Assembly (NCBI GenBank): GCA_946631345.1
Contig: CAMPAA010000002.1
Span: forward strand, 1 to 34,377
Source of the DNA: an uncultured Verrucomicrobiota bacterium
GTDB taxonomy: Bacteria > Verrucomicrobiota > Kiritimatiellia > RFP12 > UBA1067
Direction of reading: 5' to 3'
Length of the DNA: 34,377 bases
This document shows, piece by piece, positions 1 through 6,600 of the stretch. Within the stretch, counting starts at the first letter, position 1. Every line of letters begins with the position of its first letter. The notes under the pieces were generated by a model that was given only the letters and a program-made list of their open reading frames with translations, did no database searches and was not told the origin of the DNA. The translations under genes were made by a program, and so were the position numbers.

Positions 1-33
1 GGTGATCATAACCCGCCTGAGGCGGGCAGTGAG

Positions 34-357
34 ATGCCGGGTAGCTTTGAGCTTGATGTTGCCCGGCGTGACGGCACGCTTGGAGACGTGCTGCAGAAGA
101 TCGCCGCCGCCGCGCAGGAGACGAATCGCTGCGAACAGAAGTCCATCGTGCAGCTTGCGATGGATGCCACGGGCACCAGCAATGTCGACGACCGCAAGAC
201 GTTTTCCATGGTAATGCTGCGCAGGAGCCCTGACGACTGCCGGGAGGTGATCTACCGGTTCGACAGTGAACGGCGCGCCGGGGAGTTCGCCCGCATCAGG
301 AGTCTGCCGGCCCTGCTCACGAAACGCCTCTCCGCCCTCCCCACCCGCACCGATTAG
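34..357 (+). CDS. hypothetical protein (107 aa from the first ATG; the frame is open back to position 1, so it could be the 3' end of a longer gene)
   Basis: ORF track 34..357 with GC-rich composition like the neighbouring genes. A 6-bp GC hairpin (CCCGCC-TGA-GGCGGG, 12-26) just upstream favours an independent start. I recognise no motif. Confidence 0.5.
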   Translation: MPGSFELDVARRDGTLGDVLQKIAAAAQETNRCEQKSIVQLAMDATGTSNVDDRKTFSMVMLRRSPDDCREVIYRFDSERRAGEFARIRSLPALLTKRLSALPTRTD

Positions 358-374
358 CCATAGTTGCAGACGGC

Positions 375-444
375 GGGGAAAGGTAGCGTGACCTTTGCCC
401 AAGGGCAGACGGATTTTTGCCCGTGGGCTGACGGTCGTTTGCCC
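375..444. repeat. left copy of a ~70-bp direct repeat (DR-L), with internal TTTGCCC motifs spaced 22 bp apart
   Basis: GGGGAAAGGTAGCGTGACCTTTGCCCAAGGGCAGACGGATTTTTGCCCGTGGGCTGACGGTCGTTTGCCC recurs at 3434-3504 with one extra T. TTTGCCC starts at 394, 416 and 438. Confidence 0.95.
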
Positions 445-499
445 GGCGTCGGCGCGTTGGGGCAACGCGGCCTGCTATTTCGCTCCCGACAGCCATTTA

Positions 500-508
500 T
501 GGTATAAT
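500..508 (+). promoter_or_regulatory. extended -10 promoter element TGGTATAAT
   Basis: Exact TGnTATAAT lies 13 nt upstream of the ATG at 522. The same motif recurs upstream of four other genes in the window. Confidence 0.55.
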
Positions 509-521
509 TCACGGCGCAAGG

Positions 522-2069
522 ATGGTAGAGGGCATGACGAAGAACGAGACGAAGGAAAGGCCGGAGGCGCGGGTGGTGCTTGTCGGCACGTACAAAAAAG
601 GTCAGCTCCAGAAATGGCGCGGCTGGTACAACTACCCGATTTCGGAGAAGGACACGGAGGATGCAGCGGGAGGGCGGTCGTCCCCGGCCGCCGCAGACTA
701 TTCGCGAATCAACGAGCTTTGGCTGTTCCTCGGCACGGCGGCGCAGAAGACGTACAGGGCGGAGTTCGTGGGCGTGAAGACGCGCGAGGAGCTGATCCGC
801 GACTACGGGTATCCGGCGAAAGGCAAGGGGCACGCCGAGAGGTATCTGCTCTTCAAGACCGAGTTCAAGTACCGCCACCTAAACGACAATCCCCTCGACT
901 GCGAGAAGGTGATCGTACGCACCAAGGACTTCGCGCGCTCGCCTAAGGTCGCGAAGCAGCTCCGCGAATATCTCGCCTCGCCTGAACGCAGGGATCCCGA
1001 TCTCGCCAACATGCTACCGAGCATCGTCACCCAGCTCCCGCCCGCGAAACTCTGCGTCTGCGAAGCCGCCGTGCAGTTGACTTTTTGGGACATGCCGGAA
1101 CACAAGGACCTGAAACCATCTGTTCCGTTCCCTCCGCCTGAACATCCCAAGTTCACGTTCATCGACCTGTTCGCAGGTATAGGCGGCATTCGCCTTGGCT
1201 ATCAAGCTTGTGGTGGCAAGTGTGTGTTCTCTTCGGAATGGGACAAGGAAGCCGCAAAGACATACTACAGCAACTTTGGAGAGCAGCCTTGGGGTGACAT
1301 TCAACAGATTGATCCTAAGAATATTCCAGACTTCGATGTGCTACTAGCAGGGTTCCCTTGCCAGCCATTTTCAATCATTGGAGACAAAGAAGGTTTCTTG
1401 CATGAAACGCAAGGAACTCTTTTCTTCAACATTGAAAAAATACTGCTCGCAAAGAAGCCAAAGGCATTCATGTTGGAAAACGTGCGCAACTTAACGGCGC
1501 ATGACGGTGGACGAACATTTAAGATTATTATTTCGCATTTGCGAAACGCTGGGTACGATGTTCATTACAAAGTGCTGAATGCATTAGATTATGGTGTGCC
1601 GCAGAAACGCGAACGAATCATAATCTGTGGCTTTAATAGGCCTGTTGATTTTGAGTTTCCTCCGCCAATTCCAAGGGAGAAGCGCACAACGGTTGCTGAT
1701 ATAATTGATAGTGATGCTGAAAACGACCCGACATTAAGGGTACGTCCGGTCATTCGAGCGAGTAGACTTGAACGATTGAAAGACAAGAATTTCCCGAGAC
1801 CCTATATTTCGCATGAGAATGTTGCTGGTGCCATTACGCCGCATAATTACTCGTGCGCATTGCGAGCAGGGGCATCAGCAAATTACATTCTCATAAATGA
1901 CGAGCGTCGCCCCTCTCCTCGTGAGATGTTGCGAATTCAAGGTTTCCCAGACGAGTTCAAAATTGTGGTTAATTACGGTCAGATAAAGCATCAAACGGGT
2001 AATAGTGTCGCCGTTCCTGTAATACGTGCTGTTGCTGAACGTGTAACAGAAAAACTGAAAGAACTGTAA
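522..2069 (+). CDS. DNA (cytosine-5)-methyltransferase with an uncharacterised ~205-aa N-terminal domain (fusion protein, 515 aa)
   Basis: The C-terminal ~305 aa carry the m5C-MTase motifs: I FIDLFAGIGGIRLG, IV GFPCQPFS, VI/V FMLENVRNL, VIII QKRERIIICGF, IX REMLRIQGFPDEF and X GNSVAVPV. The N-terminal part (aa 1-205) has no motif I recognise. An alternative start is ATG 534. Confidence 0.9.
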   Translation: MVEGMTKNETKERPEARVVLVGTYKKGQLQKWRGWYNYPISEKDTEDAAGGRSSPAAADYSRINELWLFLGTAAQKTYRAEFVGVKTREELIRDYGYPAKGKGHAERYLLFKTEFKYRHLNDNPLDCEKVIVRTKDFARSPKVAKQLREYLASPERRDPDLANMLPSIVTQLPPAKLCVCEAAVQLTFWDMPEHKDLKPSVPFPPPEHPKFTFIDLFAGIGGIRLGYQACGGKCVFSSEWDKEAAKTYYSNFGEQPWGDIQQIDPKNIPDFDVLLAGFPCQPFSIIGDKEGFLHETQGTLFFNIEKILLAKKPKAFMLENVRNLTAHDGGRTFKIIISHLRNAGYDVHYKVLNALDYGVPQKRERIIICGFNRPVDFEFPPPIPREKRTTVADIIDSDAENDPTLRVRPVIRASRLERLKDKNFPRPYISHENVAGAITPHNYSCALRAGASANYILINDERRPSPREMLRIQGFPDEFKIVVNYGQIKHQTGNSVAVPVIRAVAERVTEKLKEL

Positions 2070-2085
2070 TAAGGAGAATCAGAGA

Positions 2086-2829
2086 ATGGACAAAACGTTA
2101 AATCCACGACTCAGAGGGGTAGATAAGTACAAGCCCGACTACTTGCTTGGGCAGTTCCCTGCTGGGTTTGCTATGGAACTTGGCAAGGAACTTATTTACC
2201 TATTGGCCACACGGAATCCACCGACGCTTGAAGGCCCAGACTGGGAGCAGATTTTTGCAAGGTGTGTAGGCGCTCAATGGGCACCATCGAATGTCGGACT
2301 TGATGATGTGCAGTTACATCAGATGGCATGGAGTGCCAAGACAGTAAAGAACAAAAACCCATTTACAGTCAAACACATTCGACTTATCAGTGGACGCAAT
2401 TCACTAGATTATTCTTTTGACGTTGAGAACGTTCATACCGAAGACCCTGACAAGTTGGGCGAAATGATTCTGGGGATTTGGAATGCACGCATCACAGATG
2501 TGCGAAAGAAATTTGCCACAACGCGAACCGTTGTGCTAATCAAAGGAGAGGATCTCTCAACGGTTTCCGTTTTTGAAGAGGAGGCTCTAAAGTTCCTGCC
2601 CGAAGAATATGAATGGGAGTGGAATCAAAAGGGAAATCTTGAGGGCTATCTTAAGGATACTGATGTGAAGAAGTTTACTTGGCAACCACATGGTTCTCAG
2701 TTCACCATAATAACTAAAGTGCCTGAGAATCGTTTGAAGCTGCGCATCAAGCGGCCGCCATTGTTGAATCGGGATGAGGTGTTGAAACAGCTTAAGTTTG
2801 ATCCATCTTGGATTGAAATAGTTGAGTAA
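2086..2829 (+). CDS. putative type II restriction endonuclease partner (247 aa)
   Basis: It starts 16 nt downstream of the MTase stop and has a strong AAGGAG Shine-Dalgarno at 2071-2076. It shares the AT-richer composition of the MTase core. A possible PD-(D/E)XK-like arrangement is GLDDV...WSAKTVK. The family is not recognised, so the function rests on context. Confidence 0.55.
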   Translation: MDKTLNPRLRGVDKYKPDYLLGQFPAGFAMELGKELIYLLATRNPPTLEGPDWEQIFARCVGAQWAPSNVGLDDVQLHQMAWSAKTVKNKNPFTVKHIRLISGRNSLDYSFDVENVHTEDPDKLGEMILGIWNARITDVRKKFATTRTVVLIKGEDLSTVSVFEEEALKFLPEEYEWEWNQKGNLEGYLKDTDVKKFTWQPHGSQFTIITKVPENRLKLRIKRPPLLNRDEVLKQLKFDPSWIEIVE

Positions 2830-2840
2830 TGACAACTTTT

Positions 2841-2867
2841 GAAGTCACAAAACGTGACTTCCATTTT
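2841..2867 (+). terminator. hairpin GAAGTCAC-AAAAC-GTGACTTC followed by CATTTT
   Basis: Perfect 8-bp inverted repeat (2841-2848 and 2854-2861) with a 5-nt loop, 12 nt after the nuclease stop codon, followed by a short T run. Confidence 0.5.
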
Positions 2868-2877
2868 GGGTGACAAA

Positions 2878-3384
2878 ATGACGCCACAAAATATAAGCAA
2901 AGTCCAAACCGCCGCCGATGCCGCCGCGCTGTTTCGGGAAATGCACCTGCAACGAAGTTGTCAGGTTCCCCGACGAGCGAAGGGAGGCGCATTCGCATTA
3001 GCGAATGTCGCAATAGGGTGCGCGTTGGCGAAGGGGCAGAGGGAGGAGCGGTTCTATGTGCTGCCGCTTGACGCGAACGGCGGCGTTCTCGCTGAGCCGA
3101 TCACCGTTTCGGTGGGGCATAGCGACGGCACGGTGGGGGTTGATGCCGGAGCCGTGTTCCGGGCGGCGCTGAAGGCGGGCGCGGAGGAGGTCGTCGTGGC
3201 GCACAACCATCCGGGCGGCGACCTGACGCCAAGCAAGGCCGACTTGCAGACGACGGCGAAGCTGCGCGAAGCCGCAAAGCTGCTCGGCGTGAAGCTGCTC
3301 GACCATCTGATTGTATCGTCGGATGGCAAGGGCGGCGTAAGTTTCGTTTCCCTTGCCGAAATCACCGACGGCTGGACGGAATAG
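2878..3384 (+). CDS. RadC-like JAB/MPN domain protein (168 aa, no N-terminal HhH domain)
   Basis: JAMM-type motif VVVAHNHPGGDLTPSKADLQTT, which is the HxHPxG...S..D pattern of the RadC/JAB family. The start is taken at ATG 2878, downstream of the hairpin; the ORF track allows 2839. Confidence 0.8.
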   Translation: MTPQNISKVQTAADAAALFREMHLQRSCQVPRRAKGGAFALANVAIGCALAKGQREERFYVLPLDANGGVLAEPITVSVGHSDGTVGVDAGAVFRAALKAGAEEVVVAHNHPGGDLTPSKADLQTTAKLREAAKLLGVKLLDHLIVSSDGKGGVSFVSLAEITDGWTE

Positions 3385-3401
3385 TCCATCGCAAGGGTCA
3401 G

Positions 3402-3504
3402 GTGACCTTTGGGGAAATGTAGCGTGACCTTTGGGGGAAAGGTAGCGTGACCTTTTGCCCAAGGGCAGACGGATTTTTGCCCGTGGGCTGACGGTCGTTT
3501 GCCC
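3402..3504. repeat. array of five ~22-bp phased units that contains the right copy of the direct repeat (DR-R, 3434-3504)
   Basis: GTGACCTTT starts at 3402, 3424 and 3447. TTTG(G/C)(G/C)(G/C) starts at 3408, 3430, 3454, 3476 and 3498, giving spacings of 22, 24, 22 and 22. Positions 3434-3504 match 375-444 apart from one inserted T. Confidence 0.9.
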
Positions 3505-3546
3505 ATGCCCGTTGCGGCCTTCTGCGCGGCCTTTCGCGGAAAGGGG

Positions 3547-3574
3547 TTGAAAAAAAAAATGAATATGATATCAT
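3547..3574 (+). promoter_or_regulatory. sigma-70-like promoter TTGAAA-N16-TGaTATCAT with an A10 tract in the spacer
   Basis: TTGAAA at 3547-3552, A10 at 3550-3559, and TATCAT at 3569-3574 preceded by TG at 3566-3567. It is closely similar to 28632-28660, upstream of the LamG gene. Confidence 0.5.
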
Positions 3575-3615
3575 TCGTGGTGTTTTTTAATTTTTTAAGG
3601 GGGAGAAGGTTTCCT

Positions 3616-6600
3616 GTGAAATACGGTTCTTTTCGCGCAATGGCTGCCAGCGTGTGCGTTGGCTGCATGATGACCGGTTCGCTGTTTGCCGACAGCCGCC
3701 ATTCGTATGACGAGACGGTGTCCATCGCCGACAACATTGTGTTCGGGGAGGGAACGGAGATAGATGTCGCCCCTGACGCCACTGTAACAATGCTCGGCAC
3801 CATGACGATTGACGGAGACGCCGGCGACATCGCCAAGACAGGCGACGGCACGTTCATCCTGGCCACGGCACCGGTCAACGGCACGGCGAATGGCGGGGAG
3901 GCGGCGAGCCTTTCGGTGCAGAACGGTGTGTTCGCCGCATCGACCGGCTCCGGGGTCGTGAGCACGTTCGGCGGCGGCGTGGAAGTGGGCATGATGGGGG
4001 AGCTTGAAGTCCGCAACGGGACGATGAACGCCGGCGGCCTCACGCTCGGCGGCGGCATTGTGGATGTGACCGGCGGCAGCCTAACCGCGGCATCGGCAAC
4101 CGGCGCCGCGACCATAGGGGTATCCGGCGGCGCAACACTTGCCGTCACCGGCACGTTCTCCGCCACGAGCGTCGGCACGGAGAAGGACGGCACCCGCATA
4201 GACGTGAAGGACGGCGGCGTGTTCGCGGTAAAGAACCTCACCGCCGCCTCGGACGCGGAGATCGCGCTGCACGTGGATGGCGGCACGTTCAGGTCGCTGC
4301 AACGCGTTTATAATGACGCTGTCTCCGGCAGATCGGTCTATGTCGGCGAGAAGGGAATGACCATCGATCTGACGGATTCCTATGCGTGGGGCCCGCAATG
4401 GAAAATGAACATCGCCCCCGAGCCAGGAGTGGCCGATGGCGGAATCGACATAGTGAGCACCGCCGACACATCGCCTACCTCGCCGCTGCGCGTCAGGTTC
4501 ATGTCCGATTGCGCTATGACGGTCACAGGCGGCGTGCGGATCGAAAACGTCGAGGCGATGCTGCTCGGTTCGAGCTTCCCCGTTTCGTTCACGGTCGGCG
4601 ACAACGCCAGCGTGCGTGTGGCGGTCGCGCCCGAGGTGACAGTGGACGAGTTGGCGTACGCGGGCCGCGACGGCTATCTCGTGATCGGCGTGAACGCGTC
4701 CAACGAGGCGTCAATGCTTGTCGCCAAGAAGTTCACCGCGCCAAGCGGATGTCTGCGTGTCCGGTTCTTCGGGTCGGACACGACCACCGCAAAATACCCG
4801 ACCGGCACGGCGGACATCCTGAAGATACCGGCTTCGGCGCAGCTTCCGCTGGCCAGGCTGCTGTTCGCGCAGAACAAGGGCGGCTACGAGGTGAGGTTCT
4901 CGGAGCGCGTGGAAGGAAGCTGGCGCATATTCTCGGTGCAGATGGAGGAATATGACGGCACTGCGCTCAATCCGCACACGACGGGCGACTGGATGACTGG
5001 CACGACTCCGTGGCTGCTGGGCAACACCCTCTATCCGTATGCGGGCGACGACCGCACCGTGGCGGCGACGATGCTGCTGAACCCGAAGTCCGCCCGCCGC
5101 AACTCGATGATATCCATCCCGGAGGGAACGGCCCTTGCGCTTGCCGGCGGCGCACAGCAGATGCAGGGCGGCTTCGTGAAGTTCGGCGACGGCACGCTCA
5201 CCTTCGGCGGCGACAGCGCCTATGCGTTCTGCCACAGCTTCACCAAGGATGTTCCGATCGTGAAAGGCATCACCCAGGCGTATCTGGCGGTCACCAACGA
5301 TTCAGGCACAAGCTCGCGGACGCACCAGTCGTCGCTGACTGTCGCGGCAGGCACGCTCAAGATAGGCTCCGGGCAGGACAGCCCGGTGGTTACGGTCGAT
5401 CTCGGCGAGCTCAACGTGGGCTCCGCCACGACTTCCGCCGCCGGCACCGAACGCGACGCGGCGATGGTGATGGAGAGCGGCACGCTGAGCGTGCAGACCG
5501 ACCCTCTCATCGTGGGCCGCACGCACGGCATCACGGCCACCCAGTCGCACACGCCGCTCGTGTCGTCCTTCACGCAGAATGGCGGCGTTGTGACGGTGGA
5601 GAGCGCAGGCGTGGCGATAGACGAGACGGAGATGTCCTCGATGGACGCCCGGCTTGTCGTGAACGGCGGGGCGTTCGAATGCCGCCGCGAACTGAGGCTC
5701 GGCATGACCGGCAATGACGCCGCCTCCCCGTCAACCGCAACGCTGGAGGTGAACGGCGGCACCCTTGACATCGGAGCGAAGGCCGCGGCGCGCGGAGTGG
5801 AAGGGCGGCTTCTCGCCGGCACAGACTCGTCGGAGAACCTCTCGACGGTGTTCACCGTGAACGGCGGCACCGTGACGCTCCACGCGGGCGCGCTCTTCGC
5901 CGCCAGCGGCAGCCACACAGTAAACCTCAACGAGGGAGGCACCGTCGCGCTCATGTCCGGCAGCTTCACGGCGAGCAGCGGCGCGGCGGCCTCCACGATC
6001 AACTGGAACGGTGGCGTGATGAAGTTCTGCGGAGCCAATACTTTCACCGGCTTCAAGACTGTGAACATCGGCGCGAAGGACGCGATCCTCGACCTCTCGG
6101 AGGCGGATACCGCAACCTGGTTCAACCAGGCGCTCTCGGGCGAGGGGCGGCTCGTGGTGCGCGGCAGCGGCTACCAGCGCGGCGTGCAGCTGTACGGCAG
6201 CTTCTCGGGCTGTGCGGGGCTTGTCGTCGCCGACGGCGGCAATGTGATGGTTCGTGTCAACCCGGCGGCGGGATTCCCCGTGCTGGTCAAGGACGGCGGC
6301 ACGCTAACGGCCTACTACAACCGCACATATCCGCTGCTCACTTTCGGCGAGACCGATGCGGACACGACGTCGTTCCTCGGCTATTACATCGGCGGCACGT
6401 TCTACGGCTCCACCGTTTCCGGCACTCTTGCGGTCAACGGCACGGTGAATGTAGGCGGGCGCGATGCGAGCAACGGAATGCTGGTGCTGCCGCAGGGGGA
6501 GCATACAATACTCACTGCGCCGACAGGGCAGATCGATGCCGGGAAGTTCAGGATACATCCCGAGCTTCTGGCGCGAGGCGCTGTTGCGACGCTGTCGGTG

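What the first reader, a model, noticed from the sequence alone, without database searches (positions are those of the whole stretch)
1140..2905. In-frame compositional chimera: an AT-richer R-M core spliced between GC-rich flanks, with one junction at methyltransferase motif I
I hand-counted GC in 60-nt lines. Position 661-720 is ~65% and 3121-3180 is ~75%. In contrast, 1321-1380 is ~45%, 1501-1560 is ~42% and 2401-2460 is ~43%. The drop begins around 1150-1200, inside ORF 522-2069. That is where the unknown N-terminal domain ends and motif I (FIDLFAGIGG, about 1156-1190) begins. Composition returns to GC-rich at about 2900, roughly 25 nt into the RadC-like gene. The only strong Shine-Dalgarno in this region (AAGGAG, 2071-2076) lies inside the AT-richer block. 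So a foreign methyltransferase-core-plus-nuclease segment appears to have replaced an earlier segment, with the reading frame preserved. This could be a specificity-module swap using conserved motif I as a recombination anchor.
Basis: seen in the sequence. Interest (0 to 1): 0.66.

Follow-up and report, generated by a model that had tools for sequence, protein, structure and literature searches.

The report
Swapped restriction-modification module in conserved scaffold
A bacterial DNA-defence operon from a gut or rumen Kiritimatiellia bacterium is a real mosaic: its AT-richer methyltransferase-plus-nuclease core sits in frame between two GC-rich conserved pieces, and the same design recurs in dozens of related genomes with many different cores.

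Summary
GC is 0.62 up to about 1199, 0.44 from 1199 to 2908, and 0.63 after that. Third-codon GC falls from 0.81-0.87 to 0.41-0.46.

Against the closest relatives, DNA identity jumps from about 70% to about 91% at 1168-1196, at methyltransferase motif I (1158-1187). It falls again at the nuclease stop codon (2829).

This is not a one-off. In Kiritimatiellia and relatives from gut and rumen samples, DNA methyltransferases of at least 18 sequence types carry the same undescribed N-terminal domain of about 185 aa. These are mostly cytosine-5 enzymes, with some N6/N4 enzymes. The domain has no Pfam, NCBIfam, PADLOC or PHROG model and probably has a PUA/ASCH-like fold. A restriction nuclease usually follows the methyltransferase, then a RadC-like gene.

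In 27 of 27 loci the N-terminal domain and RadC are GC3-rich and the interior is AT-richer. Loci in the same genome share 92-98% identical N-domain and RadC blocks around unrelated interiors.

The best explanation is module exchange by recombination anchored in conserved coding segments, which keeps the reading frame. In this window the whole 3-kb unit is also flanked by a 71-nt direct repeat.

Not shown: a donor from another taxon, which side was replaced, or the function of the N-domain.

The parts
375..444 (+). Left copy of a 71-nt direct repeat that brackets the whole unit. It is intergenic, just after the stop (357) of the upstream gene, and contains a terminator-like hairpin at 394-409.
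   Evidence: (70/71 identical to 3434-3504, E 1.5e-32)
445..521 (+). Locus-specific upstream region of the methyltransferase gene, with TATAAT at 503-508. It shows no homology to other loci.
522..1076 (+). N-terminal domain ('N-dom', aa 1-185) of the fusion protein. It is GC3-rich (0.81-0.87), belongs to an undescribed family and has a predicted PUA/ASCH-like barrel plus helical tail.
1077..1195 (+). Linker plus motif I (FIDLFAGIGG, 1158-1187), with intermediate GC3 of 0.60. Its ancestry differs from the core. The best DNA matches are other loci: L015, and L036, which carries an HpaII-type system.
1168..1199 (.). Left junction. The phylogenetic breakpoint (max chi-square at 1168, identity step at 1195/1196) coincides with the compositional breakpoint (1199).
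1196..2069 (+). Cytosine-5 methyltransferase core after motif I, through the target-recognition region to motif X. GC3 is 0.41. It is 96-97% aa and about 90-92% nt identical to L076/L078, and aligns with M.HhaI along its whole length.
2071..2076 (+). Shine-Dalgarno sequence AAGGAG for the nuclease gene, inside the AT-richer block.
2086..2829 (+). 247-aa partner gene, the presumed Type II restriction endonuclease. It has no Pfam, PDB or PADLOC match. It lies beside this core type in every locus examined that carries a full-length core of this type.
2841..2861 (+). Terminator-like hairpin after the nuclease gene, still in AT-rich sequence.
2829..2908 (.). Right junction zone. About 90% identity to the closest relatives ends at the nuclease stop (about 2829). 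The 2830-2933 stretch is about 78% identical to L078/L077. The compositional break is at 2908.
2878..3384 (+). RadC-like JAB gene (ATG at 2878, JAB domain about 3034-3345, HxHx7SxxD motif intact). It is GC3-rich and 72-77% nt identical to the RadC genes of many loci.
3434..3504 (+). Right copy of the 71-nt direct repeat, preceded by extra 23-nt sub-repeats at 3411-3433. It is intergenic, upstream of the large gene that starts at about 3640.

Best explanation
The window holds one member of a lineage-specific family of Type II restriction-modification operons built on a constant scaffold. The scaffold is an N-terminal domain of about 185 aa fused to the methyltransferase, then the nuclease, then a RadC-like JAB gene.

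The two scaffold pieces are host-like in composition. They are kept nearly identical between paralogous loci of one genome. The stretch between them is an exchangeable, AT-richer module.

I infer that modules are exchanged by homologous or homeologous recombination, or gene conversion, between family members. The conserved coding segments serve as the anchors. Because the left anchor lies inside the reading frame and aligns in register, the frame is kept automatically.

In this window the left crossover lies at or just after motif I (1168-1199), so the gene kept its own linker and motif I. The right end of the recently shared block is the nuclease stop and terminator region (2829-2908).

The whole 3-kb unit probably entered this intergenic site as a unit, producing the 71-nt flanking duplication.

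Shown:
- the mosaic and its breakpoints
- the family-wide architecture and composition pattern
- the lack of correlation between N-domain and core relatedness

Inferred:
- the recombination mechanism
- insertion as a whole unit
- the function of the N-domain (a nucleic-acid or modified-base binding accessory of the methyltransferase)
For: Composition:
- The break in this window is documented.
- Across the family, N-dom GC3 exceeds core GC3 in 27/27 loci (mean difference 0.25). RadC GC3 exceeds core GC3 in 27/27 loci (mean 0.18). Wilcoxon p is 5.6e-6.

Ancestry:
- Nearest neighbours switch from segment to segment.
- The breakpoint lies at 1168-1196.
- P0385 has a core 96% identical but an N-dom only 45% identical. 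P0386 is 96% versus 75%.
- The same core (82-86%) and nuclease (87-89%) sit behind N-doms that are 52% identical (L071) or too divergent for BLAST to detect (L065/L066). In each case GC drops where core homology starts.
- The closest N-dom among the 57 genome loci (L008, 73%) carries a core only 32% identical.
- Over 666 locus pairs, N-dom identity and core identity are uncorrelated (r = -0.05).

Anchors:
- Between paralogous or related loci, blastn finds only two homology blocks. One is N-dom (470-700 nt, 92-98%), ending 0-10 codons after ...LxVCE. The other is the RadC JAB core (305-370 nt, 92-95%).
- Between the two blocks and outside them, blastn finds at most short weak matches.

Diversity of modules:
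- There are at least 18 C-terminal methyltransferase types, including N6/N4 enzymes.
- Interior genes include NgoMIV, HpaII, EcoRII, MvaI/BcnI, BglII, EcoO109I, NgoFVII, Bpu10I, MutH-like, HNH and Eco57I-like nucleases.
- RadC lies 0.7-3.3 kb downstream in 38 genome loci, and 10 genomes have two or more loci.

Unit insertion:
- The 71-nt direct repeat has both copies in intergenic sequence.
- A second locus, L050, has a 34-nt flanking repeat of different sequence.
Against: - No donor was found closer than about 8-10% nt divergence, so the exchange is not very recent.
- The direction of replacement is not resolved.
- The left compositional break alone is broad (1070-1300).
- The linker could in principle just evolve fast. 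However, its 29-30% divergence exceeds the 8-13% divergence of the adjacent core, and L076/77/78 share the same variants against the window.
- The interior stays AT-rich in hosts of 0.41-0.72 GC, even where relatives are 20-30% diverged. A single acquisition event does not explain that. It needs either fast turnover or a selective or mutational cause that I did not test.
- No empty site was found for the 71-nt repeat.
- Most loci (35 of 37 testable) have no flanking repeat.
- All data come from metagenome assemblies.
Confidence: 0.7

Rival explanations
1. Same mosaic, opposite direction. A complete incoming unit (N-domain-methyltransferase, nuclease, RadC) inserted here. Its N-domain and RadC ends were then overwritten by gene conversion from resident paralogous copies. 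The GC-rich ends are therefore the replaced parts and the interior is what remains of the original.
For: - Same-genome paralogs share 93-98% identical N-dom blocks and 92-95% identical RadC blocks with sharp edges, which looks like concerted evolution.
- The whole unit, not just the interior, is bracketed by the 71-nt direct repeat.
- The variable Lys-rich N-terminal tail, the promoter region and the RadC C-terminal tail lie outside the homogenised blocks.
Against: - No other N-dom or RadC copy from this genome is available. The 34-kb window holds only one of each.
- Conversion of the N-dom alone would be expected to end at the N-dom boundary (about 1047-1100), as in other loci. Here the break is at motif I.
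Confidence: 0.25
2. No replacement at all. This is an old, vertically inherited fusion in which the methyltransferase core and nuclease are kept AT-rich by selection or a local mutational regime, for example low expression of a toxic nuclease. The N-domain and RadC simply track host composition.
For: - The GC3 pattern is universal in the family (27/27 loci). It persists among same-core genome loci that are 20-30% diverged in DNA with no identity step.
- The domain order is conserved across 260 clusters of relatives at 50% identity.
Against: - It cannot explain cores 96% identical behind N-doms 45% and 75% identical.
- It cannot explain the sharp identity step at 1168-1196.
- It cannot explain the zero correlation between N-dom and core relatedness.
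- It cannot explain unrelated interiors between near-identical N-dom and RadC blocks in one genome.
- It may still be part of the reason the interior stays AT-rich.
Confidence: 0.05
3. Assembly artefact. A metagenome assembler joined two different loci or strains through repeated N-domain, motif I or RadC sequence.
For: - The window matches a metagenome scaffold.
- N-dom and RadC are multi-copy repeats within genomes, which is a known cause of chimeric joins.
Against: - The junction lies at motif I. There, different loci are only about 70-84% identical over about 70-120 nt, too low for k-mer joins.
- The same architecture and GC step recur in dozens of independent assemblies from different projects.
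- The interior continues colinearly through the nuclease gene, as in L076-L078.
Confidence: 0.03

Closest known systems
Allelic substitution of restriction-modification systems at a conserved locus, and 'insertion with long target duplication' (Furuta, Abe & Kobayashi 2010, PMC2853133)
   Same: - Different R-M systems occupy the same position between conserved flanks.
- The R-M DNA is lower in GC than the host.
- The unit is flanked by a direct repeat longer than 30 bp, with no transposase or integrase inside (read; here).
   Different: - Here the conserved 'flanks' are themselves part of the operon, and the left one is translated as part of the methyltransferase. Substitution therefore happens inside a reading frame.
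- No empty-site genome was found to prove target duplication.
Domain movement or recognition-domain shuffling in Type I, Type III and Type IIG methyltransferase genes (Furuta & Kobayashi 2012, PMC3467074; mod gene mosaics, PMC1557822 and PMC3311624)
   Same: A variable central segment recombines between conserved segments of the same gene. The frame is kept and specificity changes. (I saw only the abstracts.)
   Different: - The exchanged piece here is not just a recognition domain. It is the whole catalytic core after motif I plus the separate nuclease gene.
- The constant piece is an accessory domain unrelated to the methyltransferase fold.
- Cores of different enzyme classes (C5 and N6/N4) occupy the same slot.
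PUA-like reader domains fused to or beside R-M components, e.g. DCD-methyltransferase fusions followed by a PD-(D/E)xK nuclease (Bell, Wolf & Koonin 2020, PMC7641849)
   Same: An N-terminal PUA/ASCH/EVE-like domain sits on a DNA methyltransferase, with a nuclease gene next to it (text read).
   Different: - The N-domain has no detectable sequence match to EVE, DCD, ASCH or YTH models. Only weak to moderate fold similarity was found.
- The partner nucleases are classical Type II enzymes that cut unmodified sites.
- RadC is not mentioned anywhere in that paper's text.
M.HhaI-type cytosine-5 methyltransferases
   Same: The core aligns with M.HhaI over residues 13-320 (E 1.8e-69), with all catalytic motifs present.
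   Different: - The target-recognition region aligns poorly, so specificity cannot be read off.
- The partner nuclease has no match to any solved structure.
- The enzyme carries a 210-aa N-terminal extension.
RadC/JAB proteins of mobile elements (Iyer et al. 2017, PMC5512222)
   Same: A small RadC-family JAB protein with an intact metal-binding motif, found alongside methyltransferases and conflict systems. It is predicted to process nucleic acids.
   Different: - Here it is a fixed third gene of chromosomal Type II R-M operons, not part of a conjugative-element polyvalent protein.
- Its JAB core also marks the right-hand homology block.

Membership tests
Type II restriction-modification system (C5 methyltransferase + endonuclease) | Methyltransferase with the full set of C5 motifs (I FxGxG, IV PCQ, VI ENV, VIII QxRxR, X GNS) | tested here: met
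   PF00145 matches aa 211-508 (E 3.8e-87) and TIGR00675 gives E 3.5e-92. FIDLFAGIGG, FPCQPFS, ENV, QKRER and GNSV are visible in the translation.
Type II restriction-modification system (C5 methyltransferase + endonuclease) | Adjacent co-oriented endonuclease gene that co-occurs with this methyltransferase type | tested here: met
   Homologues of ORF 2086-2829 lie directly after the same core type in L009, L015, L040 (tblastn), L041, L045, L059, L065-68, L070-72 and L076-78.
Type II restriction-modification system (C5 methyltransferase + endonuclease) | Recognisable nuclease catalytic fold or motif in the partner | tested here: inconclusive
   No match in Pfam, NCBIfam, PADLOC, PHROGs or PDB sequences. 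No structure was predicted for it.
Type II restriction-modification system (C5 methyltransferase + endonuclease) | Methylation and cleavage of a defined site | not testable with these tools
   This needs enzyme assays or methylome data. The recognition region aligns poorly with M.HhaI.
RadC / JAB (PF04002) | Profile match plus the JAMM metal motif HxHx7SxxD | tested here: met
   PF04002 gives E 6.2e-27 and phrog_10276 gives E 1.6e-23. HNHPGGDLTPSKAD is present in the translation.
PUA-like superfamily (ASCH / EVE / YTH) for the N-terminal domain | Sequence-profile match to a member family | tested here: not met
   No Pfam hit even at E <= 10. A profile search of PDB sequences at the same threshold gave nothing. 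NCBIfam (searched at E <= 0.01) has no hit covering the N-domain. PHROGs at E <= 0.01 gave none.
PUA-like superfamily (ASCH / EVE / YTH) for the N-terminal domain | Five- or six-stranded pseudo-barrel fold similar to solved members | tested here: inconclusive
   The AF2 model has pLDDT 87 and pTM 0.83. The top Foldseek PDB hits are ZmASCH 5y6b (prob 0.92, E 0.02, TM 0.28-0.38). VcaM4I, PD-T4-3, YTHDC1 and the THYN1 EVE domain follow, all with E > 0.1. ASCH and DUF3850 hits appear in BFVD. The hits point the same way, but none is significant.
R-M insertion with long target duplication (criteria of PMC2853133) | Insert contains both R and M genes, is shorter than 20 kb, has no mobility gene, and is flanked by a direct repeat longer than 30 bp | tested here: met
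   The 71-nt repeat (70/71 identical) brackets 2.99 kb holding the methyltransferase, nuclease and RadC genes. No integrase or transposase domain is present.
R-M insertion with long target duplication (criteria of PMC2853133) | The repeat aligns to a single copy at an empty site in a related genome | tested here: inconclusive
   The repeat has no exact match in metagenome contigs. Contigs with the orthologous upstream gene carry other cargo there: a Type I HsdM-like gene in L073 and an AAA ATPase in L074.
Site-specific cassette systems (integron, shufflon, invertible R-M loci) | Recombinase gene and inverted or att-type repeats at the cassette borders | tested here: not met
   No inverted repeats lie near the junctions. 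No recombinase domain was found in the unit or in the neighbouring genes that were annotated. Junction positions vary between loci.

The most novel reading that the evidence does not exclude
The N-domain and RadC may not be passive homology arms. They could be working parts of an undescribed 'R-M cassette platform' specific to Kiritimatiellia and neighbouring lineages. A PUA/ASCH-like reader fused to every methyltransferase, whatever its chemistry or target, could read the methylation state of DNA and give the enzyme maintenance-type behaviour, or tie it to a host factor. The RadC JAB enzyme could process DNA so that modules are exchanged or installed safely. Under this reading, the persistent AT-richness of the interior reflects continual turnover of modules through the platform.
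Probability: 0.15. Interest if true: 0.8.

Novelty: new variant of a known kind. Interest (0 to 1): 0.6.

Why it matters
Restriction-modification systems are known to move and to replace one another at fixed loci. Recognition domains are known to shuffle inside Type I, III and IIG genes.

Here an entire Type II module is exchanged inside a reading frame. The module runs from the catalytic core after motif I through to the separate nuclease gene. It sits behind a constant accessory domain that no database describes, and in front of a constant RadC gene. At least 18 methyltransferase types from two enzyme classes use the same slot.

This gives three things:
- a natural set of in-frame methyltransferase chimeras whose junctions show where these enzymes tolerate fusion
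- a new domain family that appears to be needed by DNA methyltransferases in a poorly studied gut and rumen phylum
- a test case for how a compositional discontinuity can persist across many species, whether through turnover or through selection

It also shows that a sharp GC step inside a gene can be a reliable sign of recombination. The compositional breakpoint (1199) fell within 3-31 nt of the phylogenetic one.

Tried and rejected
- Comparison with the six genome-collection loci that carry the same core type showed uniform 70-82% DNA identity and no step. On its own this suggested an old fusion. The step appeared only once closer relatives were found through the core search.
- An exact search for the 71-nt repeat in metagenome contigs gave 0 hits. 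The search for an empty site through the upstream gene found only loci with other cargo.
- Flanking direct repeats are not a family feature. Only the window and L050 have them, out of 37 testable loci.
- The window's 22-nt sub-repeat motif is absent from all other loci.
- An integron, shufflon or inversion mechanism is rejected. There are no inverted repeats and no recombinase.
- The conserved C-terminal peptides of truncated methyltransferase stubs (…EAA*, …RVA*) first looked like a site-specific joint. The DNA shows they are just a Shine-Dalgarno sequence plus an overlapping stop/start of the next gene.
- The N-domain gave nothing in Pfam, NCBIfam, PADLOC, PHROGs or PDB sequence searches. 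The first AF2 model (pLDDT 77) gave only very weak fold hits.
- The nuclease has no PDB or Pfam match.
- Avoidance of GCGC sites as a cause of low GC is rejected. GCGC is not depleted in the interior or in the window.
- The promoter scan of the region was no better than shuffled sequence.
- L071 at first looked like a stand-alone 317-aa methyltransferase without the N-domain. That was a gene-call artefact, because the frame is continuous with an upstream N-domain.


Full report
**1. The observation**

A two-breakpoint likelihood segmentation of bases 1-5000 places the breaks at 1199 and 2908. GC is 0.616, 0.444 and 0.626 in the three segments, and lnL rises by 72.7 over a single-composition model. 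The left break is loosely placed (1070-1300 within 2 lnL units). The right break is sharp.

No other 1.7-kb stretch of the 34-kb window comes close: the next lowest is 0.536, z = -6.3.

The difference lies at synonymous sites. GC3 values are:
- 0.81 in aa 1-205 of ORF 522-2069
- 0.42 in the rest of that ORF
- 0.46 in ORF 2086-2829
- 0.71 in the RadC ORF
- 0.81 in the large gene downstream

**2. The genes**

- ORF 522-2069 (515 aa) has a complete cytosine-5 DNA methyltransferase domain at aa 211-508 (PF00145, E 3.8e-87). It aligns with M.HhaI along its whole length (E 1.8e-69). The target-recognition region aligns poorly, so the site cannot be inferred.
- ORF 2086-2829 (247 aa) has no match in Pfam, NCBIfam, PADLOC, PHROGs or PDB. 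It has 2732 homologues and follows this core type in every locus examined that carries a full-length core of this type. It is the presumed restriction nuclease.
- RadC (gene call ATG at 2878, ending 3384) is a JAB-domain protein with an intact HxHx7SxxD motif.
- The first 185 aa ('N-dom') match nothing in any profile library.

**3. The N-domain family**

- A search with aa 1-210 found 211 relatives. A profile search of 1.84 billion representatives found only 260 clusters, and where the domain is complete it lies at the N-terminus.
- Ten divergent full-length members are all N-dom plus a DNA methyltransferase: nine C5 and one N6/N4.
- In one-genome-per-species contigs the family is confined to gut and rumen Kiritimatiellia, plus MAGs labelled Lentisphaeraceae, Verrucomicrobia or Spyradenecus. 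There are 57 loci, and ten genomes have two or more.
- Among 37 loci there are at least 18 unrelated C-terminal modules, including DPPY/SPPY-type N6/N4 enzymes.
- The gene that follows is a different classical nuclease each time: NgoMIV, HpaII, EcoRII, MvaI/BcnI, BglII, EcoO109I, NgoFVII, Bpu10I, MutH-like, HNH_2, an Eco57I-like fusion, and others.
- A RadC gene lies 0.7-3.3 kb downstream in 38 loci.
- An AF2 model built on a diverse alignment is confident (pLDDT 87, pTM 0.83). Its best structural neighbours are ASCH, EVE/YTH-type domains and the reader domains of modification-dependent nucleases. All scores are weak (best prob 0.92, E 0.02, TM 0.28-0.38).
- I take the N-dom to be a PUA-like nucleic-acid-binding domain with a helical tail, at moderate confidence. 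Its role is unknown.

**4. The composition step is a family trait**

In 27 of 27 loci with full data, N-dom GC3 exceeds core GC3 (means 0.71 and 0.46). RadC GC3 (0.64) also exceeds core GC3 in all 27. The DNA between the methyltransferase gene and RadC averages 0.46 GC. The window is therefore not a unique accident.

**5. Modules and scaffold have different histories**

- Over 666 pairs of loci, N-dom identity and core identity are uncorrelated (r = -0.05).
- Paralogous loci in one genome have N-doms 93-98% identical but cores only 30-39% identical: L021/L022, L038/L044, L010/L015 and L034/L059.
- Between such loci, blastn finds just two homology blocks. One is the folded part of the N-dom (470-700 nt, 92-98%), ending 0-10 codons after the conserved ...LxVCE. 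The other is the RadC JAB core (305-370 nt, 92-95%), which starts 55-140 nt into RadC and stops about 60 nt before its end.
- Between the two blocks and outside them, blastn finds at most short weak matches.
- Conversely, the window's core and nuclease recur at 82-89% identity behind other N-doms. One is 52% identical (L071). Another is so divergent that BLAST misses it (L065/L066). In each case GC falls exactly where core homology begins.

**6. The window's own junctions**

The core search produced closer relatives. P0384 (L078) is 97% identical in the core. P0385 (L076) is 96% identical in the core but its N-dom is only 45% identical. P0386 (L077) is 96% in the core and 75% in the N-dom.

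DNA identity to L076 / L078 / L077 by segment:
- N-dom: 0.50 / 0.80 / 0.71
- 1047-1195: 0.70 / 0.71 / 0.71
- 1196-1400: 0.92 / 0.90 / 0.87
- 1401-2060: 0.92 / 0.90 / 0.87
- Nuclease gene: about 0.905 for all three

Against L076, identity collapses at about 2825-2830. Against L078 it drops to 0.78 over 2830-2933 and to 0.72 in RadC.

The maximum chi-square breakpoint is at 1168 for L076 (chi-square 250) and for L078 (chi-square 44). The contrast between 1077-1195 and 1196-1400 gives p = 3e-7, 1e-6 and 1.5e-4. Motif I occupies 1158-1187.

In 1110-1195 the three relatives share the same AT3-rich variants against the window's GC3-rich version. The best DNA matches of the window's 1077-1195 are other loci: L015 (77% over 121 nt) and L036, which carries an HpaII-type system (84% over 70 nt).

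The methyltransferase gene is thus a three-layer mosaic:
- its own N-dom
- a linker plus motif I of separate ancestry (GC3 0.60)
- a recently shared block running from just after motif I to the nuclease stop (GC3 0.41, 8-13% nt divergence from the closest relatives)

The phylogenetic break (1168-1196) and the compositional break (1199) agree. Among L076, L077 and L078 themselves, the shared block appears to begin earlier, near the end of the N-dom (by eye in the alignment). This matches the family-typical junction.

**7. The whole unit**

- A 71-nt direct repeat (375-444 and 3434-3504, 70/71 identical) brackets the promoter region, the three genes and nothing else.
- Both copies are intergenic. 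The left one follows the stop of the upstream gene and includes its terminator-like hairpin. The right one precedes the large gene, which starts at about 3640.
- This meets the structural criteria used for 'insertion with long target duplication' of R-M units (PMC2853133, read). No empty site was found. In contigs with the orthologous upstream gene, the site holds a Type I methyltransferase-like gene or an AAA ATPase instead, so the position is a variable hotspot.
- Only one other locus (L050, 34 nt, different sequence) has such a repeat.

**8. Mechanism**

The simplest reading is recombination or gene conversion between members of the family. The conserved N-dom (or, as here, motif I) is the left anchor. 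The nuclease-end/RadC region is the right anchor. The left anchor is coding sequence aligned in register, so the frame survives every exchange.

What is shown is the mosaic, the breakpoints, and the decoupling of scaffold and module. What is inferred is the recombination pathway. The data do not tell whether the interior was imported into a resident scaffold, or whether the ends of an imported unit were converted by resident paralogs.

A purely selective explanation without exchange is contradicted. Something beyond a single event is still needed to explain why interiors stay near 0.45 GC in hosts from 0.41 to 0.72 GC.

An assembly chimera is unlikely. Loci are only 70-84% identical at the junction, and the design recurs in many independent assemblies.

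**9. Comparison with what is known, and novelty**

The following are all described: allelic substitution of R-M systems, long-target-duplication insertion, recognition-domain movement, and PUA-like domains attached to R-M components (PMC2853133, PMC3467074, PMC1557822, PMC7641849).

I did not find these features described:
- a constant N-terminal domain with no profile model, serving methyltransferases of two classes and at least 18 sequence types
- a constant RadC third gene
- exchange of the whole core plus nuclease inside a reading frame

I rate this a new variant of a known kind. My literature search was limited to the open-access library and a handful of queries.

Noticed in passing
window 375-444, 3389-3504; L004 9365-9467; L073 about 1010-1200: The 71-nt flanking repeat is itself built of 22-23-nt tandem sub-repeats (GGGGAAAGGTAGCGTGACCTTTG; TTTGCCCnnGGGCnGACGGnnn), each with a small hairpin. 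Arrays of similar period but unrelated sequence lie next to related loci: CCCCGTGAGGGGAAGTGAAAC x4 in L004, and GTGTACACCTAAGCGGCT-type units in L073. Their meaning is unknown.
   Followed up: partly
P0001-P0120; L001/L013 7968-10693; L004 10001-13615; L033, L035: Many family members are methyltransferase stubs. The N-domain is followed by only 30-90 aa of a C5 core, cut at 15 or more different positions. Other cargo then follows before RadC: NOV_C, or ORF6N plus HNH_2 plus small ORFs. In L001/L013 a truncated copy of the window-type nuclease remains (183 of 247 aa). These look like scars of interior replacement that destroyed the R-M system.
   Followed up: partly
P0002, P0004-P0006 and about 35 others; L043 3673-4467: The same N-domain is also fused to DUF3791 (PF12668) instead of a methyltransferase, joined at the same point after ...CEAAVQ.
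   Followed up: no
L073 (about 1290 onward), L074 (about 3140 onward) versus window 358-3640: Downstream of the conserved upstream gene, related contigs carry different cargo: a Type I HsdM-like gene in L073 and an AAA ATPase in L074. The site behaves as a variable defence hotspot.
   Followed up: partly
L065 1-7014: Two methyltransferase-nuclease units sit in tandem. The first is a >588-aa C5 methyltransferase with an HNH_2 nuclease. The second has a divergent N-dom-like domain fused to the window-type core and nuclease. They are separated by a 562-aa unknown gene and followed by an acidic 76-aa ORF and a Schlafen/AlbA_2-HATPase_c_4 gene. No RadC is present.
   Followed up: partly
L050 7151-10557: The unit bounded by 34-nt direct repeats includes an extra small ORF in front of the N-domain gene. 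By eye it resembles an XRE-type helix-turn-helix regulator (MAISYKKLWKQLIDRDMTRGDL...). It was not run against any library.
   Followed up: no
whole window: GGCC is under-represented (173 observed, 313 expected from base composition). GCGC and CGCG are over-represented (481 and 449 against 313). This may reflect another restriction system in the genome's history.
   Followed up: no
window 3499/3640-8856: A gene of about 1740-1785 aa lies directly downstream of the unit. It encodes a Gly/Thr/Ala-rich repetitive protein with a signal-peptide-like start and no annotation (no Pfam entry on record). It was not examined.
   Followed up: no
L078 about 360-460: The closest overall relative of the window's locus has a frameshift near the end of its N-domain. 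The gene caller therefore split it into a 150-aa and a 330-aa product. This is either a pseudogene or a sequencing error.
   Followed up: partly
window 2906-2936: A 31-nt stretch at the start of the GC-rich part of RadC is 87-90% identical in several otherwise divergent loci (L024, L026, L036, L025). It lies just where composition switches back to GC-rich.
   Followed up: no
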